Shown in pieces: positions 3,246 through 61,250 of a DNA stretch of 64,000 bases. The notes beneath the pieces are model-generated. The model saw only the letters and a list, made by a program, of their open reading frames with translations, had not been told where the DNA came from and searched no databases. The position numbers were made by a program, and so were the translations under genes. Location of the stretch: positions 1 to 64,000 of the IMG/VR virus record IMGVR_UViG_2844571421_000002; one strand, given 5' to 3'. Every line of letters begins with the position of its first letter. The first letter of the stretch is position 1. Origin of the DNA: a virus (taxonomy: Duplodnaviria > Caudoviricetes).

Positions 3246-3276
3246 GTAAATGCGTGCGGATTTTGGAAGTGGCTCA
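3246..3276 (-). promoter_or_regulatory. Putative phage-sigma promoter for the lysis cassette
   Basis: Minus strand TGAGCC-ACTTCCAAAATC-CGCACGCATTTAC; one of 17 copies. Confidence 0.7.
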
Positions 3277-3692
3277 TGCATCTGCGTAGGACCATGGATG
3301 CGGAAGGCGCTCCAGACGCACTCACAATCCTTCCCCACAATGGCGTACCGGACACATCATCCTTCGGGCCGCCCGAATGCGTTAAGCCTAGCGAGCATGA
3401 AACCGACACGTCGGCCTCATGTGCCCCTCCTCCCTCCTGAGAATGGGAATGTCTGACAGCTCGACCACAGCCGACCGGAGGGCATGGGTGACGTCATGGG
3501 GCTTCCACTCAAATTCTCACACGCCAGAAGACACAAATAAAAACACCTACCCTATCCATCTCACCTGTTAAAAACACCACAAAGGAAAGCACCGAAGTCT
3601 CGATATGCCATTGCAGATGGAAAGCCCCCATCAACACATGTAGATATCAGCCTGTGCGGACTGGGCCGCACAAACACAGAGAGAGACTTCCT

Positions 3693-4298
3693 TTGAGAAA
3701 GCTGAAGACGGTGTCATTTATGATTGCCATGACTCTTGGGATCGCCGTGGTAGGCTTTCCCACCTGGGCGCTCGCGGAGGCTGACTGCGCGAAAACCCAG
3801 GATCAGATCCAGGCATGGATCGAAGAAAACGCAGGCAAGCTTCCGACCACATTGGAGGGAGTGAGCCGGCATCCAATGGCATACCGCAGGGCTATCCTTG
3901 ATTCCCTACATCCAGAACAGAAAGTCGCGCTCTGGGGGGAGCACATTCGTCAGTACATCGCAAGCCACCCGCAGTTGAGCGCGAAGCAGATCGCGGTTCT
4001 TGAAAAGGTTCTGACAACGCTCAGTCCTCAACTCTACACCATTGGCATCACCCCGGAGGTCCAGCGAGTGCAAGCTGCGGTCAAGGAAGCTTTCGCTCCA
4101 GAGGAGGCGCGTCTCATCGTGGCCACACTGGGCCCACCAGAGTCCCCCGGCGCCGAGGCTTCACTAGCTCCAATCTGTGAGTGCAGTCGAGCAGATGCGT
4201 GGTGCGGTGGATTCCGATGCAGGGCATACTCATGCACGAAGAAGACCTCTGGGTGCGGATGGTTTGGGCTTTCCAAGTGTGACGGCCTCTGTGGCTGA
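3693..4298 (+). CDS. Fulvocin C-related bacteriocin precursor (cargo); start probably TTG 3693 or ATG 3720
   Basis: Signal peptide (MRKLKTVSF...WALA), helical pro-region, C-terminal peptide with 8 Cys (CECSRADAWCGGFRCRAYSCTKKTSGCGWFGLSKCDGLC). AT-richer than its flanks and opposite in orientation to the phage arm. Confidence 0.7.
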   Translation: MRKLKTVSFMIAMTLGIAVVGFPTWALAEADCAKTQDQIQAWIEENAGKLPTTLEGVSRHPMAYRRAILDSLHPEQKVALWGEHIRQYIASHPQLSAKQIAVLEKVLTTLSPQLYTIGITPEVQRVQAAVKEAFAPEEARLIVATLGPPESPGAEASLAPICECSRADAWCGGFRCRAYSCTKKTSGCGWFGLSKCDGLCG

Positions 4299-4345
4299 GT
4301 AGGCTTTCTCGAATCCGCGAGCGTAACCCGAACTCCAGGATTGGC

Positions 4346-4376
4346 GGCTGTTTTTGGAATTAGCGAAAACACAGCC
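4346..4376. terminator. Hairpin between the convergent bacteriocin and tail-tip genes, possible terminator
   Basis: GGCTGTTTTT...AAAACACAGCC imperfect stem. Confidence 0.35.
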
Positions 4377-4407: not shown

Positions 4408-7400
4408 CTAGTCGCGGGGCTTGAGATTGTGCGCAAGTAGTCCCTGCACAACGTAGGTCCTCGCGAAGCGAACGGTGATCTTCATCACATCGCCAGCGGC
4501 CGAAGGTACCACGCGCGCAACTCGCCCCGGAGCGACTCCATCAACCGTCTCTCCGGGGCGCAGTTCGTCAGTGCGAGTCCAGCCGCGCTCAAACGTCCGC
4601 CAGCGATGGTCCGGCGTCACGACGAGCACACGCCCATCCATCATGGTGAGCGTGCAGCGCGCCGCCTGATGCCTGCTGACGTGCGTCACCTCGAAGATGC
4701 CGCCGTCTCTCTCGTGCTCGTGCATGGTGAGCACTCGCATCCCAGGTCGGAGCATTTCGGCAGGCACTTCCGAACCATCGGCGAGCAACACCGGCTCCCA
4801 CGGCGCGACGCAGGTTCCGTGCGAACCCCCACCACCTCCACCGCCGCCAGTTGGCGTTGATGCAGGCCCCGTCACGCTCCGCACCATGTTGACGTTGTAA
4901 CTGATCGGCGGGAAAAACCACCGCTCGGCGCTGTAGCCGCTCGCGTTGTGGAGCCGCACCTTCAGGTAAAGCAGCCTGTTCGCCATCGCGTCCCGCAGCC
5001 GGTTGAACCTGTCGCCATACATGAAGGTGAAGCCAGCGCTCGTCGCGTTACTGGCGTCGCCGTCCACCGCCCCGTTCTGATACTTGCGGTCAGCAAGTGG
5101 CACCGACGTCCCATAGAGCCACTGGGGCGCGTTGCTGTCGCTATACGCCCAATAGAACCCCACCTCCATGAAGCGCAGCGCATCCAGGTTGTCGCTCACC
5201 GCCTGCGGCTGAATGACGGCATGGTAGTGCGCCCAGGTGAAGTTCGCCGCGCCACCAGCCGCCCCAGCAATCGCGTAACCCTCAAGCACCTGGATGTTCA
5301 GCCGGTCGATGTTCGGAACGCCCTCGTTGTTGCCTCGGTAGTAGATGCGGCTTCCCGTATCGGCGAGGGCCTGCACGGAACGGAAGAAGGCATCGCTCAG
5401 GTAGTAGCGCCCCACCTGGACATTGTTTGAGGCGACCTTGAGCGTTGTTCCGAGGTTGTCGAGCTTCGCCCCGGCCGTGGGGATGCCGCTGCCGTCCTCG
5501 GCGTAGTTGGACGTCTTGAGGGTGTTCGCCGCGAGCAAATCGAAAGTGACCATCTTCCTCATGGAGACGGCATCGAAGTAGAGCCGCTTGCCCACGTCCG
5601 CCACCGCCACCTGGGTTTCCCAGAAGAGCTGAACCCCCGTACAACCGGCCGGGCACGTACCCTTCACGGTGACACGCCGGTACGTCGTCCCGAGCTGCCC
5701 CAGAAAGACGCCCGTATTCTGGCCCGCGTAGACGCCGCTTCCGTCCTCCCAAAGCAAATGAAGGGTTCCCATGCCCCCGACGGTGACGGACGACGCCTTG
5801 ACGTAGACCTCGGCGAAGAACTCGTCCCCAGGGGAGCACTTGAGCCGCCCGCCTGGAACCTCTGAGCCATACCCGCCCGTCCAACTCAGCCCCGGCCACG
5901 CCCCCGTGTTCGTCAGCTCCACCCGGCGCACCCAACGACCAACCCGGGCGTTCGTGGGGTCCTCGACAAGCCTGTCACCGTCGGGCGACTTCCCCAGCGC
6001 GCGAATGCCCGCTTCGTTGTAGCCGTTCGGAATGAGGTTGTCGGTAGGCGGGTACAGCAGGTGCTGGAAGCCGACCGCGGCATCGCTCAGCGACGCGCCC
6101 TCGAGCTGCTTCGGCGTGACGGCGAGCTGAGGCGACGCGGTCCCTCGATTGCCGAAGCGATCCCGAGGAACCACGCGCACGAAGTAGGTCGTCCCCGGCA
6201 TCAGGTCGGACACACCGAATGCCGTCGTGTCGAAAGTCCCGCGCAGGGTGGAGCTGCTCGGCGTGAAGCCGCTGGACGTCGAAACGTGCAGTTCGTACCC
6301 CGAAGCAACTGGGCCACTCGAAGCCGGGGTGAGGGACAGTGAGAAGCCGTTCACGACGGCCGTCACGTTGATGTCGAGCGGGACATGCGGCGGGGACGTG
6401 TGCGCGGGCTCGCCCAGGCCGGGACGCGTGTCCATCTCCAGCCACATGGAGATGCCGAAGGAGGGCTTCCCGCGCGTTGTAAGCGTGGTGCGCGCGTCCC
6501 CCTCCGACGAGAAGACGTGGCGAAACCCGGTGACTGCCAGGTTCTGCGCGTCCGAGTAGTGAACGCCGTTGGGGAGGAACCGGTAGACGTCGCCCAGCTC
6601 CACCGGCAGGAAGAAGTCGAGGTCGATTTCCTGGTCGGCGAGCGGCTCGCACAAGTCGGACAGGGCCGCTTCCGCCATTTTCCGCGCTTCAACCTCACGG
6701 TTGATGTTGCTCGAAGCGTCCTCGGCGATTTGCATGTAGCGCACGCCGTAGGCGTCCTGGCTCGCGACGTCCTCGACGACAACGCTCTTCGTCTTGGCGT
6801 GCCCGGTGACGTCCAAGTCCCCCGCATCCGAGAAGACGACCTCCACCTTGTTCCGGACGTCCGTCCTGCTCACCACGAGCTTCGCGACGTCGCGGTAGTC
6901 GTTCGGGCCGAAGGTCCACGCGAGCGGCGGATTTGTGCGGTTGGGCTCGGTGAACGTCAACGCGAACGTCCCGCTCGACTCGCGCCAGCGGTAGCGCGCC
7001 TCCCAGCCAATCTGCTGAGCCAGGTCGCGAACGGCATCGAGAACGCTCGCCTTCTTCTGCGCGTACTGACGGAGCCTCCACCCGGGGGACACTGGGGTAT
7101 GGAGCACCACGCCCGCCCCACCGTCCGTCAGGATGGCCTGCATCACGCCCTCGACGGCAACGCCCTGGACGTCGTCACCGTAGGCCCGCTCAGCCTCAAT
7201 GAACGTGTCCTGGAGTCGGCCGCCCAAGTCACGCCCACGGAAGACGAGCTGTTCGCCAGCGAAGTCGACTTCGTCGATGTCCCCATGAAACAGCGTGTGC
7301 CACTCGCTCCTGCTGGGCGACATGCCGATGGGCAAAACCGCAGCCTCGACGATGAACTCTCGCCCCGGCCGGATGAGTTGCCCGCTTGAGGCATTCAGTT

Positions 7401-7644
7401 TCGAGTCTGCCCGGAGCGGGGCCACGCTGAAGAGTTCAATCTGCCGCTTGAGCGTCACCGTCGCGGCGGAGACGGGCTGGTCAACGTCCTCATCCACCTC
7501 AACGGCGTCGAGAAAGTCTCGCCCTTCAAGCTGGCTCAGATTCCGCCACGTCCCCGCGTCGTCGAGCACCTTCACCCGAACATGGGAAGCGTGTCCGGCC
7601 GGGTTTGTGAGCACCGCCAGCCCCTGAGACGACATGCTACGCAT
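4408..7644 (-). CDS. Tail tip / hub protein with FN3-like and carbohydrate-binding-like regions and a C-terminal Hint domain
   Basis: 1078 aa, downstream of TMP and Dit. FN3-like PHVPLDINVTA...YELHVS...YFVRVVPRDRFGN; Gly-rich linker; Hint domain CVAPWEPV...TPDH...LAHN. Confidence 0.8.
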   Translation of the reverse strand: MRSMSSQGLAVLTNPAGHASHVRVKVLDDAGTWRNLSQLEGRDFLDAVEVDEDVDQPVSAATVTLKRQIELFSVAPLRADSKLNASSGQLIRPGREFIVEAAVLPIGMSPSRSEWHTLFHGDIDEVDFAGEQLVFRGRDLGGRLQDTFIEAERAYGDDVQGVAVEGVMQAILTDGGAGVVLHTPVSPGWRLRQYAQKKASVLDAVRDLAQQIGWEARYRWRESSGTFALTFTEPNRTNPPLAWTFGPNDYRDVAKLVVSRTDVRNKVEVVFSDAGDLDVTGHAKTKSVVVEDVASQDAYGVRYMQIAEDASSNINREVEARKMAEAALSDLCEPLADQEIDLDFFLPVELGDVYRFLPNGVHYSDAQNLAVTGFRHVFSSEGDARTTLTTRGKPSFGISMWLEMDTRPGLGEPAHTSPPHVPLDINVTAVVNGFSLSLTPASSGPVASGYELHVSTSSGFTPSSSTLRGTFDTTAFGVSDLMPGTTYFVRVVPRDRFGNRGTASPQLAVTPKQLEGASLSDAAVGFQHLLYPPTDNLIPNGYNEAGIRALGKSPDGDRLVEDPTNARVGRWVRRVELTNTGAWPGLSWTGGYGSEVPGGRLKCSPGDEFFAEVYVKASSVTVGGMGTLHLLWEDGSGVYAGQNTGVFLGQLGTTYRRVTVKGTCPAGCTGVQLFWETQVAVADVGKRLYFDAVSMRKMVTFDLLAANTLKTSNYAEDGSGIPTAGAKLDNLGTTLKVASNNVQVGRYYLSDAFFRSVQALADTGSRIYYRGNNEGVPNIDRLNIQVLEGYAIAGAAGGAANFTWAHYHAVIQPQAVSDNLDALRFMEVGFYWAYSDSNAPQWLYGTSVPLADRKYQNGAVDGDASNATSAGFTFMYGDRFNRLRDAMANRLLYLKVRLHNASGYSAERWFFPPISYNVNMVRSVTGPASTPTGGGGGGGGSHGTCVAPWEPVLLADGSEVPAEMLRPGMRVLTMHEHERDGGIFEVTHVSRHQAARCTLTMMDGRVLVVTPDHRWRTFERGWTRTDELRPGETVDGVAPGRVARVVPSAAGDVMKITVRFARTYVVQGLLAHNLKPRD

Positions 7645-12495: not shown

Positions 12496-12912
12496 CTACC
12501 GGCCCGGGAAGAGCCGCGAGAGGGTTGAAAGAATCTGGGCCGCCACCAACTTGCGGAACTTCGCGCGCCCCCGACGGGCGGGCTTGCGCAGGAAGTGGAC
12601 CGGCGTGGCGAACCGTTGCTCGCCCCAGTGAAACCCTTCGTGAATGGCGCCCGCAGCGTCGTGGGCATACCCAGCCGTCGCGCTGACGCTCGCCTTCGCG
12701 TCGTTCAGCTCCGGGCCGTCGACAAACCCGGAAGTGCTCAGCGGCGGCTTGCCGTCTGTGTCCCGAGCGCCCACAGGCACCAGGGCGCGACTCGCCTGAA
12801 GCACCGTCGACGCGTGTTCGCGAGTCAAAGGCGCCAGGTCGGCGAGTACGGGCCGCTCCACCTTCCGCAGCTTGTCGAGCAGCCTGAAATCAAGAGCAAC
12901 TTTGAGTGGCAT
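12496..12912 (-). CDS. HK97 gp10-like neck/tail-completion protein
   Basis: LVPV...L..S...IHEG...HFLRKP pattern, basic C-terminus. Confidence 0.6.
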   Translation of the reverse strand: MPLKVALDFRLLDKLRKVERPVLADLAPLTREHASTVLQASRALVPVGARDTDGKPPLSTSGFVDGPELNDAKASVSATAGYAHDAAGAIHEGFHWGEQRFATPVHFLRKPARRGRAKFRKLVAAQILSTLSRLFPGR

Positions 12913-12920: not shown

Positions 12921-12951
12921 GTAAATGCGTGCGCTTTCTCGCCGTGGCTCA
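12921..12951 (-). promoter_or_regulatory. Putative phage-sigma promoter for the tail genes
   Basis: TGAGCC-ACGGCGAGAAAG-CGCACGCATTTAC, 8 nt before ATG 12912; the TGA is the stop codon of the upstream gene. Confidence 0.72.
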
Positions 12952-16788: not shown

Positions 16789-16819
16789 GTAAATGCGTGC
16801 GACTTCTGCGGATGGCTCA
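16789..16819 (-). promoter_or_regulatory. Putative phage-sigma promoter for protease and capsid
   Basis: TGAGCC-ATCCGCAGAAGT-CGCACGCATTTAC, 7 nt before ATG 16781; the TGA is the portal stop codon. Confidence 0.72.
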
Positions 16820-19587: not shown

Positions 19588-20056
19588 CGCTGGCCCCCTT
19601 GTCCTCGAGTTGCTCGGACGGCGCCGCTTCGGCAGGCGGGGACGCTGGCGGCTCGTCCGGGAGGAACTTCCCCAGCCGGTCAATCAGTAGCTCGCGCAGC
19701 GCGGCAGTGTCGGCGGCCTGGTCCTCGGGGCTCTTCGCCTCGACGTTGTCGCGTCGGCCGTACAGCTCCGGGAAGCGGCGGCTCAAGAGCCACTGGACGT
19801 GCTTCGGGTTCGTCGTCGCGGCGGCCTGGAGAGTCTCTGTCGCCCCCTGCATGAACTCCGCTTCAGCCCGGTTCACCGCGACGAAGAACTCGCGGTAGAG
19901 CCCGCGCGCCTCGCTCGCGCCCCGGTGAAACCAACGGGAAACGGTCTGCTCGTCGACGCCTACGAGGCCCGCAGCCGCTCGACGGAAGAGGCCCGAGCGC
20001 AAGTGCTCGCAGATCTGCTGTTGAAGCTCAGGAGTGAGTTTGGTTGGTCGCGCCAC
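19580..20056 (-). CDS. terS: Terminase small subunit (HTH)
   Basis: MARPTKLTPELQQQICEHLRSG...AAGLVGVDEQTVSRW HTH; overlaps the terL start. Confidence 0.8.
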   Translation of the reverse strand: MARPTKLTPELQQQICEHLRSGLFRRAAAGLVGVDEQTVSRWFHRGASEARGLYREFFVAVNRAEAEFMQGATETLQAAATTNPKHVQWLLSRRFPELYGRRDNVEAKSPEDQAADTAALRELLIDRLGKFLPDEPPASPPAEAAPSEQLEDKGASDA

Positions 20057-20061: not shown

Positions 20062-20092
20062 GTAAATGCGTGCGGTTTCGCGAAGTTTTTCA
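20062..20092 (-). promoter_or_regulatory. Putative phage-sigma promoter for terminase (divergent upstream hexamer)
   Basis: TGAAAA-ACTTCGCGAAAC-CGCACGCATTTAC, 5 nt before GTG 20056. Confidence 0.62.
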
Positions 20093-20782: not shown

Positions 20783-21079
20783 TCACTTGGCAATGATGCG
20801 TGCGTCACATGCCTGCACATCTGCACACCACGCCCGCCAGCGTCGCTGCCATGCCCCATCATCAGTGAGCCGCTCGTCGACCGTTAGCTCGCCGTGCCCA
20901 CGTAATAGGCGCAGGCCGCACAGGTCACACGGCATCGCGTACAGGTTCCGCCGTCGCGTCGCCTCCACGTCCGCGCATGCCATGTGACGAGCGCCAGTCG
21001 CGCGCTCGTAGGTGATGACCTCCCCTCGATCGATAGCGAGTGAGCACACGGCACAGGGGGAGCATCGCGAAGCCAGCAT
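20783..21079 (-). CDS. Small Cys-rich (zinc-binding) phage protein; start probably ATG 21079 or GTG 21088
   Basis: CAVC...HMAC and CDLC...WC...C; directly downstream of the sigma gene; homolog near 62940-63245. Confidence 0.65.
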   Translation of the reverse strand: MLASRCSPCAVCSLAIDRGEVITYERATGARHMACADVEATRRRNLYAMPCDLCGLRLLRGHGELTVDERLTDDGAWQRRWRAWCADVQACDARIIAK

Positions 21080-21089: not shown

Positions 21090-21896
21090 CTACTGGTCCT
21101 GTCTGACGAGCACCTCGCGCAGCTCAGCCAGCGCACGCGCGAGCATCCGGTCGACGCGACTCTTCGGCGCGCCCCATGCTTCCGCCACGGAGCGCACCGA
21201 CTGCGCCGGGCGGTTGAGACCGAAGACGCGTGAAACAAGCTCCCGCTGCTCAGTGGCCAGCCGTCGCACGGCGTCGAACACGAGGGCTCGTCGCTCAGCC
21301 GCCAGCAACTTTGCCTCTGGCGTCTCTTCGTCGGCGTCCAGGCACGACATCTCGCGGAGTGCGGATTCCAACTCGTCGACCCATGAGGCATCGGCCGAAG
21401 CACCGTCCGAAAAATGAGACGGTATGTCCATGCGGTGGACTCGGACGACGTTGCGTTCGTTGCTACGGATTGAACGCACGGTGCGACGCTTGTGCCCGCC
21501 GTCGCTCAGGTGAACGTCGGTGCCGTGCAAGCGCGCGTACTGTTCGCAAGCAGCCCGCGCCCGGAAGTAGGCAACCTGGCCGAACGACTGGCGCCCCCTC
21601 GTGGCGTCGTACTTGGACACCGCGCGAAGCACCGCCATGGCGGCAACTTGCGCGAGGTCATCAGGCGACAGCGAGCCCGCGATGGGCAAGAGGGCCCCGA
21701 CGATGCACCGGATGAGGGGTCTCATGGAGTCGATCAACTCAGCGGACAACCGTCGCTCCAGCACTGCGTTGCCGCCCGCGCGGGCCGACAGGATGCGGGA
21801 CACGAGTTCGGATTGCCGGGCCGCCCGAAGGCCATACTCACCGTGTGAAACATGCTTTTTCGCACTACCCTTGCGACAAATGGCTGCGTGAGACAT
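21090..21896 (-). CDS. Phage-encoded sigma-70-family RNA polymerase sigma factor (start uncertain: ATG 21896 or 21920)
   Basis: Region 2-like DDLAQVAAMAVLRAVSKYDATRGRQSFGQVAYFRAR; region 4 HTH LATEQRELVSRVFGLNRPAQSVRSVAEAWGAPKSRVDRMLARALAEL. Confidence 0.85.
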   Translation of the reverse strand: MSHAAICRKGSAKKHVSHGEYGLRAARQSELVSRILSARAGGNAVLERRLSAELIDSMRPLIRCIVGALLPIAGSLSPDDLAQVAAMAVLRAVSKYDATRGRQSFGQVAYFRARAACEQYARLHGTDVHLSDGGHKRRTVRSIRSNERNVVRVHRMDIPSHFSDGASADASWVDELESALREMSCLDADEETPEAKLLAAERRALVFDAVRRLATEQRELVSRVFGLNRPAQSVRSVAEAWGAPKSRVDRMLARALAELREVLVRQDQ

Positions 21897-22025: not shown

Positions 22026-22056
22026 GTAAATGCGTGTGGAATCCGTCAGCGGCTCA
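22026..22056 (-). promoter_or_regulatory. Putative phage-sigma promoter (sigma gene, proximal)
   Basis: TGAGCC-GCTGACGGATTC-CACACGCATTTAC, followed by hairpin GCGGCA-GTGG-TGCCGC (22003-22018). Confidence 0.68.
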
Positions 22057-22100: not shown

Positions 22101-22131
22101 GTAGATGCGTGCGACTTCCGTGAACGGCGCA
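22101..22131 (-). promoter_or_regulatory. Putative phage-sigma promoter (sigma gene, distal)
   Basis: TGCGCC-GTTCACGGAAGT-CGCACGCATCTAC. Confidence 0.6.
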
Positions 22132-22294: not shown

Positions 22295-22487
22295 TGAGCC
22301 ATTCGCGAAATCCGCACTCATTTACCAGCGGCGGCGCGCACCACCTGCCGCATCCGCCCGGCTGACGATTCCGTGGGCCATTCGGAAAATCCGCACCCAT
22401 TTACAGGGTGCCATGCACGTACCCCACACGCCTCCCGCCTCCATCGCACGCCTCACTGAGCCACTCGCAGAATCCGCACCCATTTAC
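22295..22487 (+). promoter_or_regulatory. Three tandem copies of the putative phage-sigma promoter upstream of primase
   Basis: Copies at 22295-22325, 22374-22404 and 22457-22487 (79 and 83 nt apart); the last lies 6 nt before ATG 22494. Confidence 0.72.
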
Positions 22488-25844: not shown

Positions 25845-25875
25845 CGCGCCACTCCTGAAATCCGCACCCATTTAG
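25845..25875 (+). promoter_or_regulatory. Putative phage-sigma promoter for exonuclease-helicase
   Basis: CGCGCC-ACTCCTGAAATC-CGCACCCATTTAG, 5 nt before GTG 25881. Confidence 0.65.
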
Positions 25876-25880
25876 AGAGG

Positions 25881-31060: not shown

Positions 31061-31091
31061 CGAACCACTCCCAAAATCCGCACGCATTTAC
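31061..31091 (+). promoter_or_regulatory. Putative phage-sigma promoter for SSB-like gene and DNA polymerase
   Basis: CGAACC-ACTCCCAAAATC-CGCACGCATTTAC, followed by hairpin GTCAGCG-N8-CGCTGAC (31097-31118). Confidence 0.65.
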
Positions 31092-31760: not shown

Positions 31761-33770
31761 ATGAATGTCTGGTCCTTCGACACGGAAACGTGGCTGATTC
31801 AGCCCGGCTTGCTCGCGCCCCCTCTCGTGTGCGGCAGCATCGCGGCGGCAGCTCCAGGCAGTGAACGACTGCTCGACAAGGCTCAAGCCCGGCAGTTCTT
31901 TCGCGAGGCCATCACCTCACCTGACACGGACCTTGTCGGCGCAAACCTCGCCTACGACCTGGGCGTCATGGCGGCGGATGACCCGAGCCTCGTGGCGCTC
32001 ATCTTCGCGGCGCTCGAAGCCGGCCGCCTGCATTGCGTCCAGGTCCGCGAAGCCCTCATCGACATTGCCCGGGGCCTGTACGGAGTGGACCCGTCGACAG
32101 GCCGGAAGCTCGACGATGACGAAGGCGCCCGCTACCCGCTCGCGCTTCTCGTGCAGCGCCATCTCGGGCTCGACATCAGCGAGGACAAGAAGAACCCGAA
32201 GGCATGGCGCCTGCGCTACGCGGAACTCGACGGCGTGCCTGTCGAGCGCTGGCCCCAGGATGCGGCCGACTACCCGAAGCGCGACGCTCGCTACACGCTC
32301 GACGTCTTCTACCGGCAGGAAGCCGTAGCCCGGGAGACACCCAACGGCGGCAACCTGCATGCCGAAGCCGAGCAGATGCGCGCCGCCTTCGCGCTCCACC
32401 TTGCGTCCATCTGGGGACTCCGAACGAACGGTGACTCGGTCGCCGTGCTGCGGGAGCGGGTGGAACGGGAGTGGGGAGAGAACCGCGCCAAGTTCCAGGC
32501 GGCGGGCATCTACCGTGAGGATGGCACCAAAGACTCGAAGCGCCTCGCGGCGCTCGTGACTGCCGCCTACGACGGACAGCCGCCCATCACCGCGCCCAGC
32601 GACCGATTTCCGGACGGCCAGGTCGCGACCGACCGTGACACGCTGCTCGGTTCGGGTGACGCGCTCCTCGAGGACTTGGGCAAGAGCGGGCGCGTCGACA
32701 AGTACAAGTCGACCTACCTGGACGTCGTGGAAGCGGGCACCTCGCTCCCCATCAATCCGCGATTCAACGTGCTCGTCAGCACCACGCGCGTGTCGAGCGA
32801 CTACCAGCAGCTCCCGCAGAAGGGCGGCATCCGTGAGGTCCACGAGGCGCGGCCCGGCTTCGTCTACTGCTCGGTCGACTACGGCGGGCTTGAGCTTCGC
32901 ACCATGGCTCAGCGGGCCATCTGGGAACTCGGCTTCTCGAAGATGGCCGAAGCGCTGAACAGTGGACTCGACGTCCACACCCTTGCCGCGGCTGAATTCC
33001 TCGGGGCGAGCTACGACGAGCTGCTTCCGAAGGTGAAGGCGAAAGAGCCCCTCGCGGTCGCCTTCCGCCAGCTCGCGAAGATTCTCAACTTCGGCAAGGG
33101 CGGCGGGATGACGGGCGGCTCGCTCGTCTACAACGCACGCGCGAAGGACCGGGTTTCCTTCTGCCTGCTGGCGAAGCGCGCAGACGTCTGCGGCATCGAG
33201 CGCGTCGTCATCACCGTGCAGCGCCAGCCGAAGATGGTCTGCCGGGCCTGCGTCGAAGTCGCCAAGGAACTGGACACGAAGTGGCTCAATGCGTGGCCCG
33301 AGCAGCGCGAGCTACAGCACCGGGCGAAGTCACGCACCTACGGGCGCGGGTTTGCCGACGTGATGATTCCGGGGGCCAACATCCTGCGCGGTGGGTGCGG
33401 CTACACTCAGATTCTCAACACCCCATTCCAGGGGCTCGGCGCTGTCGGGTGCAAGCTCGCCATGTGGCGCGTCAGCCGCGAGATGTACGTCGACCGCCGC
33501 TCGCCGCTCTACGGCTCGCGACTCGTCCTCATGGTGCATGACGAGCTGATTAGCGAGCTACTCGCCGATGACGCCCAGCGGATGCACGACGCCGCCGAGC
33601 GCAAGGCGTACCTGATGCGCGAGGCGATGAAGGAGACGACTCCCGACCTGGCACCGGCAATCGAAGCCGAGCCCGCGCTGTCTCGCATCATGTCGAAGGA
33701 CGTCGCCACCGTGCGCGATAGCTCCGAGCGGCTGCTCGTCTGGGAGCCACCAACAAAGCGCGCTGCCTGA
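31761..33770 (+). CDS. Family A DNA polymerase with 3'-5' exonuclease
   Basis: Exo motifs DTET, NLAYD, YPKRD; Pol motif A DYGGLELR, motif B RQLAKILNFG, motif C VHDE. Confidence 0.92.
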   Translation: MNVWSFDTETWLIQPGLLAPPLVCGSIAAAAPGSERLLDKAQARQFFREAITSPDTDLVGANLAYDLGVMAADDPSLVALIFAALEAGRLHCVQVREALIDIARGLYGVDPSTGRKLDDDEGARYPLALLVQRHLGLDISEDKKNPKAWRLRYAELDGVPVERWPQDAADYPKRDARYTLDVFYRQEAVARETPNGGNLHAEAEQMRAAFALHLASIWGLRTNGDSVAVLRERVEREWGENRAKFQAAGIYREDGTKDSKRLAALVTAAYDGQPPITAPSDRFPDGQVATDRDTLLGSGDALLEDLGKSGRVDKYKSTYLDVVEAGTSLPINPRFNVLVSTTRVSSDYQQLPQKGGIREVHEARPGFVYCSVDYGGLELRTMAQRAIWELGFSKMAEALNSGLDVHTLAAAEFLGASYDELLPKVKAKEPLAVAFRQLAKILNFGKGGGMTGGSLVYNARAKDRVSFCLLAKRADVCGIERVVITVQRQPKMVCRACVEVAKELDTKWLNAWPEQRELQHRAKSRTYGRGFADVMIPGANILRGGCGYTQILNTPFQGLGAVGCKLAMWRVSREMYVDRRSPLYGSRLVLMVHDELISELLADDAQRMHDAAERKAYLMREAMKETTPDLAPAIEAEPALSRIMSKDVATVRDSSERLLVWEPPTKRAA

Positions 33771-33798
33771 ACCACGGCCGAAATCCGCACCCATTTAG
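33768..33798 (+). promoter_or_regulatory. Putative phage-sigma promoter for the resolvase-xis-int operon
   Basis: TGAACC-ACGGCCGAAATC-CGCACCCATTTAG; the TGA is the polymerase stop codon; overlapped by palindrome TTAGGGAG-N8-CTCCCTAA (33795-33818). Confidence 0.66.
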
Positions 33799-42106: not shown

Positions 42107-42137
42107 GTAAATGCGTGCGACTTCAGAGCGTGGCCCA
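42107..42137 (-). promoter_or_regulatory. Putative phage-sigma promoter for the lysis cassette
   Basis: TGGGCC-ACGCTCTGAAGT-CGCACGCATTTAC. Confidence 0.68.
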
Positions 42138-43738: not shown

Positions 43739-43769
43739 GTAAATGCGTGCGACTTCTGGAAATGACCCG
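43739..43769 (-). promoter_or_regulatory. Duplicate putative phage-sigma promoter in front of the lysis remnant
   Basis: CGGGTC-ATTTCCAGAAGT-CGCACGCATTTAC. Confidence 0.58.
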
Positions 43770-53072: not shown

Positions 53073-53489
53073 CTACCGGCTCGGGAAGAGCCGCGAAAGC
53101 GTGGCAAGAATTTGGGCGGCAACCGTCTTGCGGAACTTCGCGCGCCCCCGACGGGCGGGCTTGCGCAGGAAGTGGACCGGCGTGGCGAAACGTTGCTCGC
53201 CCCAGTGAAACCCTTCGTGAATGGGGCCCGCAGCGTCGTGGGCATACCCAGCCGTTGCGCTGACGCTCGCCTTCGCGTCGTTCAGCTCCGGGCCGTCGAC
53301 AAACCCGGACGTGCTCAGCGGCGGCTTGCCGTCCGTGTCCCGCGCGCCCACAGGCACCAGGGCGCGACTCGCCTGAAGCACCGTCGACGCGTGTTCGCGA
53401 GTCAAAGGCGCCAGGTCGGCGAGTACGGGCCGCTCCACCTTCCGCAGCTTGTCGAGCAGCCTGAAATCAAGAGCAACTTTGAGTGGCAT
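53073..53489 (-). CDS. HK97 gp10-like neck protein
   Basis: Paralog of 12496-12912. Confidence 0.6.
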   Translation of the reverse strand: MPLKVALDFRLLDKLRKVERPVLADLAPLTREHASTVLQASRALVPVGARDTDGKPPLSTSGFVDGPELNDAKASVSATAGYAHDAAGPIHEGFHWGEQRFATPVHFLRKPARRGRAKFRKTVAAQILATLSRLFPSR

Positions 53490-53497: not shown

Positions 53498-53528
53498 GTA
53501 AATGCGTGCGCTTTCTCGCCGTGGCTCA
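53498..53528 (-). promoter_or_regulatory. Putative phage-sigma promoter for the tail genes
   Basis: Identical to 12921-12951. Confidence 0.72.
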
Positions 53529-56041: not shown

Positions 56042-57130
56042 TCAGGTGTAGGTGATGGAGCTGAACGCCTTCGGCTGGCGGACCTTGAAGTCGCCCTTCA
56101 CGATGGCGCGAACCGTCGTCTCGTCGTACTCCGCCCGCGTGTCGTGCTCGGACAGAATCAAGTCCTCGTCGATTCCGTAGATGAACTGGCGCCAGTCCGC
56201 CGAGAAGGTGATGCGCGACACCGGCACGCGGGTCGTCATCACGAAGGGGAAGCCGCGAATCGTGCCCCTATCCAGCATCTCCTGACGGAACACCCAGACG
56301 CCGGAATTCTGGAGCTGAAGCAGCGCCGTCGCCCGCGTCGGGTGAAGCACCCACGCCGCGTTGCCCATGCGCACATGCGCCGTCAGTGGCAGCTCGACAG
56401 CCTTGTCGATGTCGGCCAGATACGCCGCTGACGTCGTCCCAGTGGAAGCGAAGGTGTGCGCGGCGTCGAGCTGAGCGAAGAGCCCCTTCGGCGCGGCGCC
56501 CGTCCCGTCTCCGTTGAAGCCCGCGTCGTCCAGGCCATCGGCGACCGTCGCCCGGATGTCCTCGCCGACGCCCGCGTCACCCACGCCCGGCGTGCGCAGC
56601 AAGTCGTTGCTGATGTCGGTCAGCACCATGCCCTTGTGGGCCTTGAGGACAATCTTCCCGTACTTCGGCGCGCTCTTCGGCACCGTCTCGCCTTCGCCGA
56701 CCCACTTGAAGACGGACGTCCCGGTTTGCTTGCCCATGTGCAGCTCGCCCTTGAACGTCTGGGTGCGCACGCCCAGCTTGAGCATCGCCGCGTCGGGCCG
56801 GAGGAACTCAATCACTTCGCCGCTCTGCTGGATGGGCACCAGCACACCGGCCGAGTCGAACTTGCTGAGCTGAACGGCCTTCTGGACGTCGGCGTTGCCG
56901 AAGCGCTTCGAGGCGTCGACCAGTTCGGCGGCTCCGGTGCGGCGTCCGGCCGCGATGACGCTCTTCGCGAAGCCGCCGAAGTTCTCAGCGCTCGCGTAGA
57001 CGCCAGTCCCGCGCGGCGCGTTGCCCGGCTCAGCCCGGCCCGGGGCACTTCGAGCGGCGGCGTCCACCAACTCTCGCGCGACCTCGGGGCCGAGCGCCTT
57101 CACCATCTGTGCGATTTGCTCGCGAGTCAT
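56042..57130 (-). CDS. Major capsid protein (HK97 fold)
   Basis: Near-identical to 14863-15951. Confidence 0.88.
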   Translation of the reverse strand: MTREQIAQMVKALGPEVARELVDAAARSAPGRAEPGNAPRGTGVYASAENFGGFAKSVIAAGRRTGAAELVDASKRFGNADVQKAVQLSKFDSAGVLVPIQQSGEVIEFLRPDAAMLKLGVRTQTFKGELHMGKQTGTSVFKWVGEGETVPKSAPKYGKIVLKAHKGMVLTDISNDLLRTPGVGDAGVGEDIRATVADGLDDAGFNGDGTGAAPKGLFAQLDAAHTFASTGTTSAAYLADIDKAVELPLTAHVRMGNAAWVLHPTRATALLQLQNSGVWVFRQEMLDRGTIRGFPFVMTTRVPVSRITFSADWRQFIYGIDEDLILSEHDTRAEYDETTVRAIVKGDFKVRQPKAFSSITYT

Positions 57131-57939
57131 TCTTTCACTCCTCGGATGTAGCCCTTGAATGCCTCGACGAAGCTCTTCGCGGCGTCGGTGGCGTTGAAAC
57201 CCTTCGTCTCTTCCTCTTCCTCGTCACCTTCCGACGGCTCGGCAGGCGGCGGCTCTTCCTCGTCGGGCTCGCTCTTGCGCTCGTCCTCGACGTCTTCTTC
57301 GTCCGCCGACTTCTCTTCGGGCTCGGCTTCCTCTTCGTCCGTCGACTTCGCTTCGGCCCGTGCGTCGAGCAGTTCGACAACGCGCGTTGCAATGCGTTCA
57401 ACGAGGTCGTCGGGCGCTTCGTCCAAGGACTTCGAGCGCACGGCCCGCGAGTTGCCCGGAATCGTTACGACGGAGACTTCGAGCAGTTCCTGTGCGTCGC
57501 AGTCGTAACCGCCGCGCTCGTTCTGCCGGTACTGGCCAGGGAGCATGAGGTAACGGACGGAGACGGCATTCAGGATGCCCTTCGAAACCTTGCGTTCGAC
57601 CTTCTTCGCGAACTCGTCTTCGTCGTCGAACTCGACGTCCACCATCAGGGCATCGCCTTCGACGTAGACGCGCCCCTTCCCGATAGGCAACTGAGGTTCA
57701 GCCCCAGTCAACGAGGCGCTCGCCCCGTCGTCGTGGTTGTAGAGGACGACGCCATTCGCGTTGTAGCCGTCCACCCGCCAGCCTTTGACGTTCAGCCGGT
57801 CCGAGTAGCGGTCGAAGTCGCCGTCACTCGCTTTGAACTTGAAGACGCGCCGTCCGCCAATGGACTCGACGGCGCTCAACGTCGCCGCGTCCTTTCGAAC
57901 GGCGCTCAGCCGCAGGGAGCGTGTAATGGGTCCAGTCAT
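57127..57939 (-). CDS. HK97-family prohead protease
   Basis: Paralog of 15948-16781 with a different acidic tail. Confidence 0.85.
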   Translation of the reverse strand: MTGPITRSLRLSAVRKDAATLSAVESIGGRRVFKFKASDGDFDRYSDRLNVKGWRVDGYNANGVVLYNHDDGASASLTGAEPQLPIGKGRVYVEGDALMVDVEFDDEDEFAKKVERKVSKGILNAVSVRYLMLPGQYRQNERGGYDCDAQELLEVSVVTIPGNSRAVRSKSLDEAPDDLVERIATRVVELLDARAEAKSTDEEEAEPEEKSADEEDVEDERKSEPDEEEPPPAEPSEGDEEEEETKGFNATDAAKSFVEAFKGYIRGVKE

Positions 57940-57946: not shown

Positions 57947-57977
57947 GTAAATGCGTGCGACTTCTGCGGATGGCTCA
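57947..57977 (-). promoter_or_regulatory. Putative phage-sigma promoter for protease and capsid
   Basis: Identical to 16789-16819. Confidence 0.72.
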
Positions 57978-59333: not shown

Positions 59334-60745
59334 ACCGCGAAGAACTGTTCGACGAAGACCAAGTCATGAACGCCCCAGCAGAAGGCGTCGGCCCGGTCAT
59401 CTCTGCGCCCGTTGATGCCGGTGAACTTGCTGAGCTGTGCTTCCAGCTTCGGGAAGGTGCCGACGAACTCGACGCGGCCCGCTTCGGCCAGGGCGGACAC
59501 AGGCTCCGCGCGCTTGCTCTTCGCGCTCGTCGCCCGCACGGGCTTCACATTGACGCTGACGCCCATTTCGCTCGCGACGGTACTGATGAGCGTCTCCACC
59601 ATCTCCCCGCCCGTGTTCACCTCGACAACGAGCGCGTCACACCCCCATTCGAGATAGGCCCGGATGGCTGTCGTCGCCCACTCGCGAGGACTGGCCCGGC
59701 GCGACAGGTCGGCCAACACCGAAACGCGCTTGAGCGGAACACCATCGGCCCCGAAGAGCACGCTCGACTTGCACCCCTGCACGATGATGCCCGTTTCGTC
59801 CGAGCCGGTTTCGCTCGTAGGGCTCGGGTCCACACTGACGATGCGCCTGTCGAGCTGCTGCGCGTACTCGTGCGGGTCGACCTCCACGCGGCCCCACTTC
59901 GCCGAGCCGAAGATGGCCCCGGGCACGTCGAAGAGCAGGCGGCCGAGAACCTCTTGCTGTCCCCAGCGGGTGTTCGCCAGCGCCCGCATGTTGGCCACGG
60001 CCGACGGCGCCAGGTTCGCGGAGTTGCTCAGCGAAGAGCCTGTGCGAAGCACCACGCCCGGCTTGAGTTCCTGCGTCTCCGCGTTCGCGAAGAGCAGCTC
60101 TTCAATCTTCTTCAGCGGGCGCGGCGTCCCGGTGAGGAGAAGCTGCGGCGGGTCCTCTCGCGAGCCGATGCGCAACACCAGCGGCAGTTGGTCAACCGCG
60201 GCCATGTCGTGTTTCCACGAAGCGGGCTCGTCGCCCCAGCCCCATCCGGCATTCGGGCCGCGCAGCCGGTCGGGCTTATCCGCCGAGTAGCAGATGGCAT
60301 AGACGCCGTTGGGCCACGTCACCCGGCGCTTGCTGGGCTCGTACTTGGGCGTGAACCACGGAGGCGACAGGGCGAGGATGCCGGACGCGCCGCGAATCAT
60401 GGTGTCGCGCACGTCCGCCGCCGTCGGGCCGATGAGGGCCCCGACACTCTTCGCCTGCCACGCCTTTTTGATGACCCAGCGCGCCCCGCACCACGTCTTC
60501 CCGAAGCCGCGCCCAGCCATGACGAAACAGGTCGAGAACTTGTCCGGGGGCGACTGCTCGCGACGGGCCCAGAAGTCGAGGTCGTAGACGAGCAGCTCAA
60601 CTTCCTTGTCGTCGAGCCCGCCGAAGAGCTTCGCGAGCTGAGCGCGGGAGCCGGCCGTTTGCACCATCCGCGATGCGGGCGACTCGTGCGGCGCGAGCCC
60701 TTCGGCGAACTTCCCCCATGCGCCCTTCGACAGAAGGCTACGCAT
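59330..60745 (-). CDS. terL: Terminase large subunit; start ATG 60745
   Basis: Same motifs as 18172-19587. Confidence 0.92.
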   Translation of the reverse strand: MRSLLSKGAWGKFAEGLAPHESPASRMVQTAGSRAQLAKLFGGLDDKEVELLVYDLDFWARREQSPPDKFSTCFVMAGRGFGKTWCGARWVIKKAWQAKSVGALIGPTAADVRDTMIRGASGILALSPPWFTPKYEPSKRRVTWPNGVYAICYSADKPDRLRGPNAGWGWGDEPASWKHDMAAVDQLPLVLRIGSREDPPQLLLTGTPRPLKKIEELLFANAETQELKPGVVLRTGSSLSNSANLAPSAVANMRALANTRWGQQEVLGRLLFDVPGAIFGSAKWGRVEVDPHEYAQQLDRRIVSVDPSPTSETGSDETGIIVQGCKSSVLFGADGVPLKRVSVLADLSRRASPREWATTAIRAYLEWGCDALVVEVNTGGEMVETLISTVASEMGVSVNVKPVRATSAKSKRAEPVSALAEAGRVEFVGTFPKLEAQLSKFTGINGRRDDRADAFCWGVHDLVFVEQFFAV

Positions 60746-61214
60746 CGCTGGCCCCCTTGTCCTCGAGCTGCTCGGACGGCGCCGCTTCGGCAGGCGGGGA
60801 CGCTGGCGGCTCGTCCGGGAGGAACTTCCCCAGCCGGTCAATCAGTAGCTCGCGCAGCGCGGCAGTGTCGGCGGCCTGGTCCTCGGGGCTCTTCGCCTCG
60901 ACGTTGTCGCGTCGCCCGTACAGTTCCGGGAAGCGGCGGCTCAAGAGCCACTGGACGTGCTTGGGGTTCGTCGTCGACGCGGCCTGGAGTGTCTCCGTTG
61001 CCCCCTGCATGAACTCCGCTTCGGCTCGGTTCACCGCGACGAAGAACTCGCGGTAGAGCCCGCGCGCCTCGCTCGCGCCCCGGTGGAACCAACGAGAAAC
61101 GGTCTGCTCGTCGACGCCCACGAGGCCCGCCGCCGCTCGACGGAAGAGGCCCGAGCGCAAGTGCTCGCAGATTTGCTGTTGAAGCTCAGGTGTGAGTTTG
61201 GTCGGTCGCGCCAC
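60738..61214 (-). CDS. terS: Terminase small subunit
   Basis: Near-identical to 19580-20056. Confidence 0.8.
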   Translation of the reverse strand: MARPTKLTPELQQQICEHLRSGLFRRAAAGLVGVDEQTVSRWFHRGASEARGLYREFFVAVNRAEAEFMQGATETLQAASTTNPKHVQWLLSRRFPELYGRRDNVEAKSPEDQAADTAALRELLIDRLGKFLPDEPPASPPAEAAPSEQLEDKGASDA

Positions 61215-61219
61215 ACCCG

Positions 61220-61250
61220 GTAAATGCGTGCGGTTTCGCGAAGTTTTTCG
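61220..61250 (-). promoter_or_regulatory. Putative phage-sigma promoter for terminase
   Basis: CGAAAA-ACTTCGCGAAAC-CGCACGCATTTAC, 5 nt before GTG 61214; lies in the conserved block 61220-61327. Confidence 0.6.

What the first reader, a model, noticed from the sequence alone, without database searches (positions are those of the whole stretch)
3246..61250. A phage-encoded sigma factor with its probable 17-site promoter regulon readable in the sequence
Seen: a 31-bp bipartite motif, YGRGCC-N12-CRCACBCATYTAS, always with a 12-nt spacer, occurs at 3246, 12921, 16789, 20062, 22026, 22101 (minus), at 22295, 22374, 22457, 25845, 31061, 33768 (plus), and at 42107, 43739, 53498, 57947, 61220 (minus). 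Eight copies have exact TGAGCC; the terS and 43739 copies deviate in the hexamer. Every copy points into a downstream phage gene, on both the replication and structural arms, and none points into a cargo gene. Both prophages encode a sigma-70-family protein. Inference: one phage sigma drives the whole lytic programme, including its own gene and xis-int, and the near-identical sigmas could cross-activate the two prophages. I do not recognise this consensus as a described promoter class.
Basis: partly seen in the sequence, partly recalled or inferred. Interest (0 to 1): 0.9.

Follow-up and report, generated by a model that had tools for sequence, protein, structure and literature searches.

The report
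Phage sigma factor and its promoters
Two tandem Myxococcus prophages carry a highly conserved, strictly oriented 31-36 bp signal in front of every phage operon; it is most likely a private promoter read by the sigma factor each prophage encodes, so this is a new example of a known way for phages to control their genes.

Summary
All 17 copies are at the stated places, against 0.08 expected by chance. The full 77-kb provirus record has 25 copies, all scoring at least 39 bits, with nothing between 12 and 39 bits.

Every copy lies in a non-coding gap and points at the next phage gene.

It is kept at the same gene junctions in Myxococcus, Corallococcus and Stigmatella prophages. A distant metagenomic phage, whose sigma is only 31% identical, keeps GCCAC-N16-CATTTA.

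In 61 Myxococcaceae genomes the motif occurs only in phage-derived DNA, apart from one orphan copy.

The protein is a genuine two-domain sigma-70-family factor. The phage has no single-subunit RNA polymerase, no recognisable repressor and no sigma-70-consensus promoter. The motif has no conserved RNA fold.

At about two thirds of sites the start codon begins 6-9 nt after CATTTA, where transcription would be expected to start, so many mRNAs may be leaderless.

Best reading (about 0.6): these are promoters for RNA polymerase carrying the phage sigma. The link between sigma and motif rests on association and elimination, not on a direct test. Overlapping notes from this scan exist on the same genome only.

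The parts
3246..3276 (-). Motif copy before the lysis cassette of prophage 1 (holin-like gene 2932-3216, M15 endolysin 2399-3031). The start codon is 30 nt downstream, and a hairpin starts right after CATTTA.
12921..12951 (-). Motif copy filling the 36-nt gap between the tail terminator gene (its TGA stop is the first 3 nt of the motif) and the 138-aa tail gene 12496-12912. The ATG begins 9 nt after CATTTA.
16789..16819 (-). Motif copy filling the gap between portal (its stop is the TGA of the motif) and prohead protease 15948-16781. The ATG begins 8 nt after CATTTA.
20062..20092 (-). Motif copy before terS 19580-20056. The GTG begins 6 nt after CATTTA. The upstream hexamer is TGAAAA; this deviation is conserved in all relatives.
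22026..22056 (-). Proximal motif copy before the sigma gene. A leader of about 120 nt with two strong hairpins follows.
22101..22131 (-). Distal motif copy before the sigma gene (CATCTA variant).
22295..22325 (+). First of three tandem motif copies before the primase-helicase gene.
22374..22404 (+). Second tandem copy. An in-frame ATG (22413) begins 9 nt after CATTTA.
22457..22487 (+). Third tandem copy. An in-frame ATG (22494) of the VapE-type primase-helicase begins 7 nt after CATTTA.
25845..25875 (+). Motif copy after an opposite-strand cargo gene and before the PD-(D/E)XK nuclease 25881-27206 and helicase 27193-29109. The GTG begins 6 nt after CATTTA.
31061..31091 (+). Motif copy after the HATPase/Shedu-like cargo gene and before the 176-aa ORF 31147-31677 and DNA polymerase A 31761-33770. 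A structured 56-nt leader follows.
33768..33798 (+). Motif copy whose TGA is the PolA stop codon. It points at the 60-aa ORF, the 186-aa ORF and the tyrosine integrase 34767-35999.
42107..42137 (-). Motif copy before the lysis cassette of prophage 2 (holin-like gene 41790-42077, endolysin 41260-41892).
43739..43769 (-). Motif copy before a second copy of the holin-like gene (43237-43710), between two AbiTii cargo genes.
53498..53528 (-). Prophage 2 copy before the 138-aa tail gene 53073-53489.
57947..57977 (-). Prophage 2 copy before the prohead protease 57127-57939.
61220..61250 (-). Prophage 2 copy before terS 60738-61214 (upstream hexamer CGAAAA).
21090..21896 (-). Sigma-70-family gene of prophage 1 (268 aa, P0001): sigma-2 and sigma-4 domains joined by a disordered linker of about 65 aa, with no sigma-3 domain.
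63250..64000 (-). Sigma gene of prophage 2, near-identical to P0001 by eye. It runs past the window end to about 64056 of the record.
20783..21079 (-). 98-aa Cys/His-rich (zinc-ribbon-like) ORF directly after the sigma gene. It is conserved in about two thirds of relatives. Its role is unknown, and it is not required for the motif to be present.

Best explanation
The motif is a phage-private promoter. Host core RNA polymerase carrying the prophage-encoded sigma-70-family factor (268 aa, sigma-2 plus sigma-4) would bind GCCAC as the -35 element and CATTTA, 16 nt downstream, as the -10 element. The conserved AA-N2-CGCAC block lies between them and a G-rich discriminator lies after them. Transcription would start about 6-9 nt after CATTTA.

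One such promoter, or a tandem array, stands before each phage transcription unit on both arms. One also stands after each cargo slot, so a single factor would switch on replication, packaging, head, tail, lysis and the integrase block.

Two copies precede the sigma gene itself, which would give positive feedback. At about two thirds of sites the start codon lies at the predicted start point, so those mRNAs would be leaderless or have leaders of 1-3 nt.

Shown here: the motif, its geometry, orientation, placement, conservation and phage-only distribution; and that the protein is a sigma factor. Inferred: that it is a promoter, that this sigma reads it, where transcription starts, and autoregulation.
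For: (1) The motif is far from chance: 17 of 17 sites confirmed, against 0.08 and 1.7 expected. There are 25 sites in 77 kb, all at least 39 bits, with a clean gap below.

(2) The layout is promoter-like. There are two blocks with fixed spacing, an AT-rich hexamer with A at its second position in DNA of 63-69% G+C, and all 25 copies are co-oriented with the next gene and non-coding apart from a shared stop codon.

(3) The start codon begins 6-9 nt after CATTTA at 102 of 158 non-identical sites in 18 loci. For terS this start is supported by a family alignment that begins at residue 1. The G-run keeps its distance from the motif, not from the start codon, so it is not a Shine-Dalgarno site.

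(4) The other sites have leaders of 16-146 nt, which an element acting only on translation would not have.

(5) Copies follow opposite-strand or low-GC cargo genes (25845, 31061, 3246), as expected for restarting transcription.

(6) The protein is a sigma factor. It scores 54.5 bits on TIGR02937 (cut-off 42.9). The nearest solved chains are FliA and RpoS. The AlphaFold model shows sigma-2 and sigma-4, and all listed Foldseek hits (E at most 2.6e-4) are sigma factors.

(7) Sigma and motif travel together in prophages of Myxococcus, Corallococcus and Stigmatella. They also occur together in a distant phage with the same gene order, whose sigma is 31% identical.

(8) The motif is phage-only. In three whole Myxococcus genomes, exact matches occur only on prophage contigs, and 2-mismatch matches equal the control. 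In 61 Myxococcaceae genomes it occurs in 6, with 0 control matches, and is tied to prophage DNA except for one orphan copy.

(9) No other reader is visible. There is no sigma-70-consensus promoter in prophage 1 and no single-subunit RNA polymerase. No repressor-type family appeared among the ORFs scanned. The motif has no conserved RNA structure.
Against: There is no direct evidence of transcription starts or of sigma dependence.

Co-occurrence of sigma and motif is largely co-inheritance within one phage lineage, because no relative lacking the sigma but otherwise intact was found.

The core CGCACNCATTTA is unchanged between phages whose sigmas are only 31% identical. The differences include the predicted DNA-reading helices (KSRVDRMLARAL versus RTSTDGILARAV; AYFRARAACEQYAR versus AQPLVRRAMRDFAL). 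A more conserved reader therefore cannot be excluded.

The strong conservation of the 'spacer' block (AA-N2-CGCAC) is unusual for a sigma without a sigma-3 domain.

At several sites a hairpin begins at the first or second base after CATTTA. That would fit a start point closer to the motif than 6-9 nt, although the enrichment over controls is modest.

GUG-initiated leaderless translation has not been documented in Myxococcus, as far as I could find.
Confidence: 0.62

Rival explanations
1. The motif is an oriented operator, analogous to the 'stoperators' of mycobacteriophage L5. A phage (or host) DNA-binding protein would sit on each copy and block initiation or elongation in the lysogen.
For: The sites are asymmetric, lie in short intergenic gaps, are all oriented with transcription, are numerous across the genome, and cluster in the divergent control region. 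This matches the published description of stoperators, which I recall from memory. The invariance of the core despite sigma divergence would fit a different, better conserved binder.
Against: No repressor-like gene was found among the ORFs scanned, and the opposite-strand genes differ between the two sibling prophages, so they look like cargo. The element is a 31-36 bp bipartite signal with -35/-10 geometry, not a 13-bp site. Its fixed register with start codons has no role in a roadblock model. Under this model the phage operons would have no recognisable promoter at all.
Confidence: 0.12
2. The motif is a promoter, but it is read by a host holoenzyme (housekeeping or alternative sigma), perhaps helped by a phage activator. 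The phage sigma would then have another, narrower role.
For: The motif is constant across phages with very different sigmas. The C-rich CATTT part resembles the sigma-32 -10 consensus CCCCATNT. From my own knowledge, untested here, Myxococcus has several RpoH-like and many ECF sigmas.
Against: No copy occurs at host genes. Exact matches in three Myxococcus genomes of 9-12 Mb, and in 61 family genomes, are confined to phage-derived DNA, and looser matches equal the reversed-pattern control. A host sigma would be expected to have at least its own promoter or regulon. CATTTA has A where the housekeeping consensus TATAAT has its conserved final T.
Confidence: 0.1
3. The motif acts in RNA as a start-associated element, like the SAS/ESAS repeats of cluster K mycobacteriophages. 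It would promote translation initiation or mark a processing site on polycistronic transcripts.
For: The start codon begins 6-9 nt after the motif at about two thirds of sites, and the motif fills whole intercistronic gaps inside operons. A properly spaced Shine-Dalgarno sequence is missing at these starts.
Against: One third of sites lie 16-146 nt before the start codon. RNAalifold finds no conserved pairing in the motif: 0 pairs across 20 diverse copies. A 25-nt-distant second block with fixed spacing, and tandem arrays in a divergent control region, are features of DNA recognition. The zinc-ribbon protein beside the sigma, the only candidate RNA binder noticed, is absent from relatives that keep the motif.
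Confidence: 0.07
4. The copies are polar replication or packaging signals, for example loading or priming sites for the phage primase-helicase. They would be oriented with fork movement away from the central control region.
For: Orientation switches at the divergent region next to the primase-helicase gene, where an AT-richer polypyrimidine/polypurine inverted repeat could be an origin.
Against: The sites are tied to gene starts with single-nucleotide regularity and avoid coding sequence. Priming or translocase-guiding signals do not behave this way. The spacing between sites follows operon structure and cargo slots.
Confidence: 0.03

Closest known systems
Phage-encoded sigma factors with private promoters (T4 gp55 late promoters, SPO1 gp28 and gp33/34, phiEco32 gp36); recalled from memory
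   Same: A phage sigma-70-family protein redirects host core polymerase to a phage-only consensus that is repeated before phage operons. The consensus is much more uniform than host promoters.
   Different: Those are virulent phages that use host-type early promoters and a temporal cascade. Here a temperate prophage appears to use one consensus for early, late, lysis and integrase units and for the sigma gene itself. The signal is 31-36 bp with a conserved middle block, and start codons sit at the predicted start point.
ECF (group 4) sigma factors and their autoregulated promoters
   Same: Two-domain sigma-2/sigma-4 architecture. The protein hits the TIGR02937 model above cut-off. The promoter is bipartite with a 16-nt gap between GCCAC and CATTTA. 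Copies lie upstream of the sigma's own gene.
   Different: There is no AAC/CGT-type consensus. The linker is very long (about 65 aa) with an invariant DVHLSDGxHKxRT segment. No membrane anti-sigma is present, and the factor is phage-borne. Assignment to an ECF group was not tested.
E. coli sigma-32 -10 element CCCCATNT (PMC6687850)
   Same: A C-rich stretch followed by CAT-T: CACNCATTTA versus CCCCATNT. Sigma-32 is the top Foldseek hit of the model, by a negligible margin.
   Different: No RpoH family model is among the best NCBIfam hits. The -35 element is GCCAC, not TTGAAA. This is a resemblance only.
Stoperators of mycobacteriophage L5 and SAS/ESAS repeats of cluster K mycobacteriophages; recalled from memory
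   Same: Many asymmetric copies in short intergenic gaps, oriented with transcription (stoperators). Close register with start codons (SAS).
   Different: Those are 13-bp elements bound by a known repressor, or elements containing the ribosome binding site. This one is bipartite with promoter geometry, has no repressor gene, and one third of copies are far from any start codon.
T7-type single-subunit RNA polymerase promoters
   Same: A long, nearly invariant contiguous block (AAYCCGCACNCATTTA) followed by G-rich initial sequence, repeated in intergenic gaps without terminators.
   Different: No single-subunit polymerase gene is present. All large ORFs are assigned to primase-helicase, helicase, PolA, tape measure or tail.

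Membership tests
Sigma-70 family sigma factor (the protein) | Sigma-2 domain (regions 2.1-2.4) | tested here: met
   TIGR02937 scores 54.5 bits against a cut-off of 42.9, covering residues 53-262. Pfam Sigma70_r2 scores 20.7, below its cut-off of 24, in P0001, but 27.3, above it, in the G005 orthologue. The helical bundle 18-124 is modelled at pLDDT above 85.
Sigma-70 family sigma factor (the protein) | Sigma-4 domain with helix-turn-helix | tested here: met
   Residues 190-267 are modelled with high confidence. They align to region 4 of FliA and RpoS chains. All listed Foldseek hits (E at most 2.6e-4) are sigma factors. Pfam r4 alone is below its cut-off (16.3 against 24.1).
Sigma-70 family sigma factor (the protein) | Binds core RNA polymerase and directs initiation | not testable with these tools
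Sigma-dependent bipartite promoter (the motif) | Two conserved elements at -35/-10-like spacing, the downstream one AT-rich | tested here: met
   GCCAC-N16-CATTTA (TGAGCC-N18-CATTTA), with invariant spacing in 25 of 25 copies and in the relatives. One satellite-like element has the spacing one nucleotide longer.
Sigma-dependent bipartite promoter (the motif) | Lies upstream of, and is co-oriented with, transcription units | tested here: met
   25 of 25 copies are co-oriented and in non-coding gaps.
Sigma-dependent bipartite promoter (the motif) | Primary transcript 5' ends a few nt downstream; activity depends on the sigma | not testable with these tools
   The published M. xanthus Cappable-seq paper gives start sites only for selected genes.
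Sigma-dependent bipartite promoter (the motif) | Co-variation of promoter and sigma recognition residues | tested here: inconclusive
   The motif core is identical across sigmas of 31-95% identity, so no informative variation exists.
L5-type stoperator | Cognate repressor gene in the prophage | tested here: not met
   No repressor-type family appeared among the ORFs scanned with Pfam and PHROGs. Small unannotated proteins cannot be excluded.
L5-type stoperator | Short (about 13 bp) single-block asymmetric site | tested here: not met
   The information content is spread over 36 columns in three blocks.
Cluster K start-associated sequence | Always a few nt upstream of a start codon and includes the ribosome binding site | tested here: not met
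   56 of 158 sites have the start codon outside the 6-9 nt window. The G-run is anchored to the motif, not to the start codon.
T7-type single-subunit polymerase promoter | Phage encodes a single-subunit RNA polymerase | tested here: not met
   None found. The N-terminal 540 aa of the VapE protein match primase/helicase PHROGs, and the other large ORFs are assigned.
Sigma-54 promoter | GG and GC dinucleotides 10 nt apart (TGGCAC-N5-TTGC) | tested here: not met
   The sequence shows no TTGC-type -12 element at the required distance from TGRGCC.

The most novel reading that the evidence does not exclude
This would be a temperate phage lineage with no CI/Cro-type switch. A single self-activating sigma factor would be the master regulator of the whole genome, firing 10-12 near-identical promoters that place the start codon at +1, giving leaderless AUG/GUG mRNAs.

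Sibling prophages in tandem, and small integrative satellites that carry the same promoter and a sigma-4-only relative, would be wired into the same factor. Induction of one element would then trigger all of them.
Probability: 0.3. Interest if true: 0.75.

Novelty: new variant of a known kind. Interest (0 to 1): 0.58.

Why it matters
If the reading holds, the complete cis-regulatory map of a widespread family of Myxococcus, Corallococcus and Stigmatella prophages can be read from sequence alone. Only one trans-acting factor would need testing.

It would give a temperate-phage example in which one sigma drives early, late, lysis and integration genes and its own synthesis. That raises the question of what keeps the loop off in the lysogen.

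It predicts a set of leaderless mRNAs in a delta-proteobacterial host, which can be tested directly.

It would also provide an orthogonal sigma/promoter pair for gene expression in myxobacteria.

The tandem arrangement recalls the polyploid Mx alpha prophage of M. xanthus (PMC6070905). I did not test whether this element is Mx alpha.

Tried and rejected
- **Close relatives among deposited phages:** megablast of the first 25 kb against phage records found nothing.
- **Co-variation between sigma and motif:** I looked for distant sigma homologues and for motif-bearing contigs found independently of the sigma. The family is tight, and the one distant member keeps the same core, so no co-variation test was possible.
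- **Relatives lacking the sigma:** a terL-based search returned only the same lineage, with terL 90-97% identical.
- **RNA-structure explanation:** RNAalifold found no pairs in the motif, and there is no Rfam family in the window other than the tRNA.
- **Hairpins after CATTTA as a marker of the 5' end:** the first paired base is at position 0-2 in 70% of sites, against 55% for random windows. This is too weak to place the start point.
- **Published transcription-start data:** the M. xanthus Cappable-seq paper's tables cover only c-di-GMP genes.
- **Sigma-54, T7-type and sigma-32 membership:** considered and rejected (see Membership tests).
- **The orphan copy in genome G039:** it lies beside an IS21 element. 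Its neighbouring ORFs match neither the phage nor the satellite-like element, and it remains unexplained.

Full report
**What the window is.** The window is the first 64 kb of a 77,005-bp IMG/VR provirus record. It holds two sibling siphovirus-like prophages in tandem, at about 63-69% G+C.

Prophage 1 runs from about 1.9 kb to an integrase (34767-35999) that abuts a tRNA-Leu gene at 36016-36101. Its left arm, on the minus strand, reads terS, terL, portal, prohead protease, capsid, head-tail adaptor, tail terminator, tube, tape measure, tail proteins and a lysis cassette. Its right arm, on the plus strand, reads a VapE-type primase-helicase, a PD-(D/E)XK nuclease, a helicase, a 176-aa ORF, DNA polymerase A, two small ORFs and the integrase.

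Opposite-strand or low-GC genes sit in between and look like cargo: a DUF1232 protein, a 275-aa ORF, an HATPase/Shedu-like protein and, in prophage 2, two AbiTii genes. Ser/Thr kinases and a DUF2381 protein lie between the prophages. DUF2381, the kinases and the relatives found later place the host in Myxococcus.

**The observation.** The 31-bp pattern matches 15 times at up to 2 mismatches, against 0.08 expected. The 12-bp core matches exactly 17 times, against 1.7 expected.

A weight matrix built from the sites finds 25 copies in the whole record. Every copy scores at least 39 bits and nothing scores between 12 and 39.

The consensus is longer than reported. It reads TGAGCCAC, four variable bases, RAAYC, CGCAC, N, CATTTA, and then usually C and a G-run at positions 3-6 after CATTTA.

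Every copy lies in a non-coding gap and points at the next phage gene. At 12951, 16819 and 33768 the TGA of the motif is the stop codon of the upstream gene, so the motif fills the whole 35-36-nt gap. The 43739 copy points at a second full copy of the holin-like gene.

Across 18 loci and 158 non-identical sites, the first start codon of a long, high-GC3 ORF begins 6, 7, 8 or 9 nt after the last A of CATTTA at 102 sites.

The distance is typical of each gene:
- terS: 6 nt, GTG.
- Nuclease: 6 nt, GTG.
- Protease: 8 nt, ATG.
- 138-aa tail gene: 9 nt, ATG.
- Primase-helicase: 7 and 9 nt.

The terS start is supported by a family alignment that begins at residue 1. The G-run keeps its position relative to the motif while its distance to the start codon varies from 0 to 3 nt, so it belongs to the motif and is not a usable Shine-Dalgarno site.

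If CATTTA is a -10 element, the canonical start point is the seventh base after it. These genes would then be read from leaderless mRNAs or from mRNAs with 1-3-nt leaders. This step is inference.

The remaining site classes (lysis, the 176-aa ORF with PolA, the integrase block, sigma) have leaders of 16-146 nt, often with a hairpin that begins right after CATTTA. The excess of such hairpins over random windows is modest, 70% against 55%, so I do not use it to place the start point.

**The sigma factor.** GC3 profiling and the sequence place the gene at 21093-21896(-), 268 aa.
- It passes the NCBIfam sigma-70 superfamily model: 54.5 bits against a cut-off of 42.9.
- It matches PHROG sigma families.
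- It aligns over both domains to FliA and RpoS chains.
- An AlphaFold model built on 16 homologues shows a confident sigma-2 bundle (18-124) and sigma-4 (190-267). A linker of about 65 residues, modelled as disordered, joins them, and there is no sigma-3 domain.
- Foldseek returns only sigma factors among the listed matches.

Prophage 2 has a near-identical copy; I judged this by eye and did not compute the identity. The family is confined to Myxococcaceae-type prophages. Region 2, the invariant DVHLSDGxHKxRT segment after it, and region 4 are its most conserved parts.

**Relatives.** Twenty loci whose sigmas are 61-95% identical keep the motif at the same junctions. So do a Corallococcus prophage (60%) and a Stigmatella prophage (55%).

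A pattern scan of viral contigs that did not use the sigma found further multi-copy contigs. Those that are reasonably complete carry a sigma.

One of them is a metagenomic phage with the same gene order but a sigma only 31% identical. It has six copies reading GCCAC-N5-RAAACCGCACACATTTA, again 5-9 nt before start codons. The conserved upstream element is therefore GCCAC, 16 nt before CATTTA.

The downstream block does not change at all, although the predicted DNA-reading helices of the two sigmas differ. This blocks any co-variation test and is the main caveat on the assignment.

**Distribution in hosts.** In three whole Myxococcus genomes (9-12.4 Mb), exact matches occur only on prophage contigs, and 2-mismatch matches are as frequent as the reversed-pattern control.

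In 61 genomes of the family, a 26-nt pattern occurs in 6 genomes and the control in none. The matches break down as follows:
- The genomes with a full sigma gene.
- A fragmented assembly with sigma fragments next to the sites.
- A contig-end prophage piece, and a right-arm prophage remnant that has lost the sigma.
- One orphan copy beside an IS21 element.

No host gene carries the motif. This argues against a host sigma regulon.

**Elimination of other readers.**
- No sigma-70-consensus promoter is found anywhere in prophage 1, against 1.4-2.2 expected by chance.
- No single-subunit polymerase exists. The unassigned N-terminal half of the VapE protein is a primase.
- No repressor-type family turned up among the ORFs scanned.
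- The motif has no conserved RNA pairing and matches no Rfam family.
- The zinc-ribbon ORF that follows the sigma is absent from several relatives that keep the motif.

**How it most likely works.** Core polymerase carrying the phage sigma would recognise GCCAC and CATTTA. The conserved middle block is perhaps read by the invariant basic segment after sigma-2; this is inference. Transcription would start 6-9 nt downstream.

Stacked copies, three before the primase-helicase gene and two before the sigma gene, form a divergent control region around an AT-richer polypyrimidine/polypurine inverted repeat. Copies inside the late operon and after cargo slots would re-start transcription.

The sigma would feed back on its own gene. 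The two sibling sigmas would act on each other's promoters, because the sites are equivalent.

What silences the loop in the lysogen is unknown. Candidates are the structured sigma leader, the zinc-ribbon protein, or a factor acting at the inverted repeat.

I put this reading at about 0.6. The rivals are an oriented operator (0.12), a host-read promoter (0.10), an RNA-level start-associated element (0.07) and a replication signal (0.03).

**Comparison with what is known.** Phage sigma factors with private promoters are textbook biology, from my own knowledge: T4 gp55, SPO1 gp28 and gp33/34, phiEco32 gp36. The kind is therefore known.

Several things differ here. The phage is temperate. One consensus appears to serve all units, including the sigma and integrase genes. 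The signal is unusually long and uniform. Start codons sit at the predicted start point.

The C-rich CATTT part resembles the sigma-32 -10 consensus CCCCATNT (PMC6687850), but the protein is not an RpoH family member by the models tested.

I found no paper describing this prophage regulon or motif.

Other first-stage notes of this scan on the same genome describe the same motif and control region. They agree with what I measured but are not independent evidence.

Noticed in passing
L034:7500-8332 and L035 (metagenome contigs): A small integrative element carries an integrase, an HTH_17 protein, a DUF5906 primase and two unknown ORFs. It has one copy of the motif, with a 13-nt rather than 12-nt spacer, in front of its operon. 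Divergently it encodes a 178-aa relative of the sigma that lacks region 2, plus the zinc-ribbon ORF. It looks like a satellite wired to the helper phage's sigma.
   Followed up: partly
window 20783-21079(-) and 62943-63239(-): A 98-aa ORF directly after each sigma gene has invariant CxxC, HxxC and CxxC motifs (zinc-ribbon-like). It is 61-74% identical in about two thirds of relatives and absent from the others. It matches no Pfam family and no solved structure. It could be a partner or regulator of the sigma.
   Followed up: partly
window 22157-22260: An AT-richer polypyrimidine tract is followed by its polypurine inverted repeat, exactly between the two divergent motif arrays. The same kind of repeat, with a different sequence, is present in all relatives and is multiplied in L010. 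It could be an origin or the site of the missing lysogeny control.
   Followed up: partly
window 20062-20092, 61220-61250 and the terS sites of all relatives: The terS copy of the motif always has GAAAAA in place of GAGCCA in the Myxococcus, Corallococcus and Stigmatella phages. This conserved weak upstream element might delay or condition late-operon firing.
   Followed up: no
window 22374-22496: Two in-frame ATGs of the primase-helicase ORF (22413 and 22494) each sit right after a motif copy, in this phage and in its relatives. The result may be two isoforms that differ by 27 residues, with the longer one encoded partly by the third motif copy.
   Followed up: partly
window 25875-25900 and the homologous nuclease sites in relatives: A hairpin starts at the first base after CATTTA (GGGAGG-GTGAC-(G)CCTCCC), with the GTG start codon in its loop. 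Both arms change between relatives while the pairing seems to be kept, but I did not test this for compensatory change.
   Followed up: partly
window 42252-44869: In prophage 2 the unit of promoter plus holin-like gene is duplicated, and each copy has an AbiTii abortive-infection gene beside it on the opposite strand (42252-43256 between the two units, 43886-44869 beyond the second). This looks like a cargo insertion that copied its target.
   Followed up: partly
window 4408-7644(-) and 44986-48222(-): The 1078-aa tail protein has a fibronectin type III domain and a weak C-terminal Hint-domain match (Pfam Vint, E=0.005).
   Followed up: no
window 36313-40272(-): A cargo block lies between the prophages, beside the tRNA-Leu gene. 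It holds two Ser/Thr kinase-like genes and a DUF2381 protein.
   Followed up: no
G039:C1:4801856 (L186:10053): An orphan copy of the motif (21.8 bits) lies next to an IS21 IstB gene, in a Myxococcaceae genome with no sigma homologue and no phage genes within 10 kb. It is unexplained.
   Followed up: partly
window 1-1635(-): A Mu-type transposase (rve core plus Mu transposase C-terminal domain) lies at the left edge, outside prophage 1.
   Followed up: no
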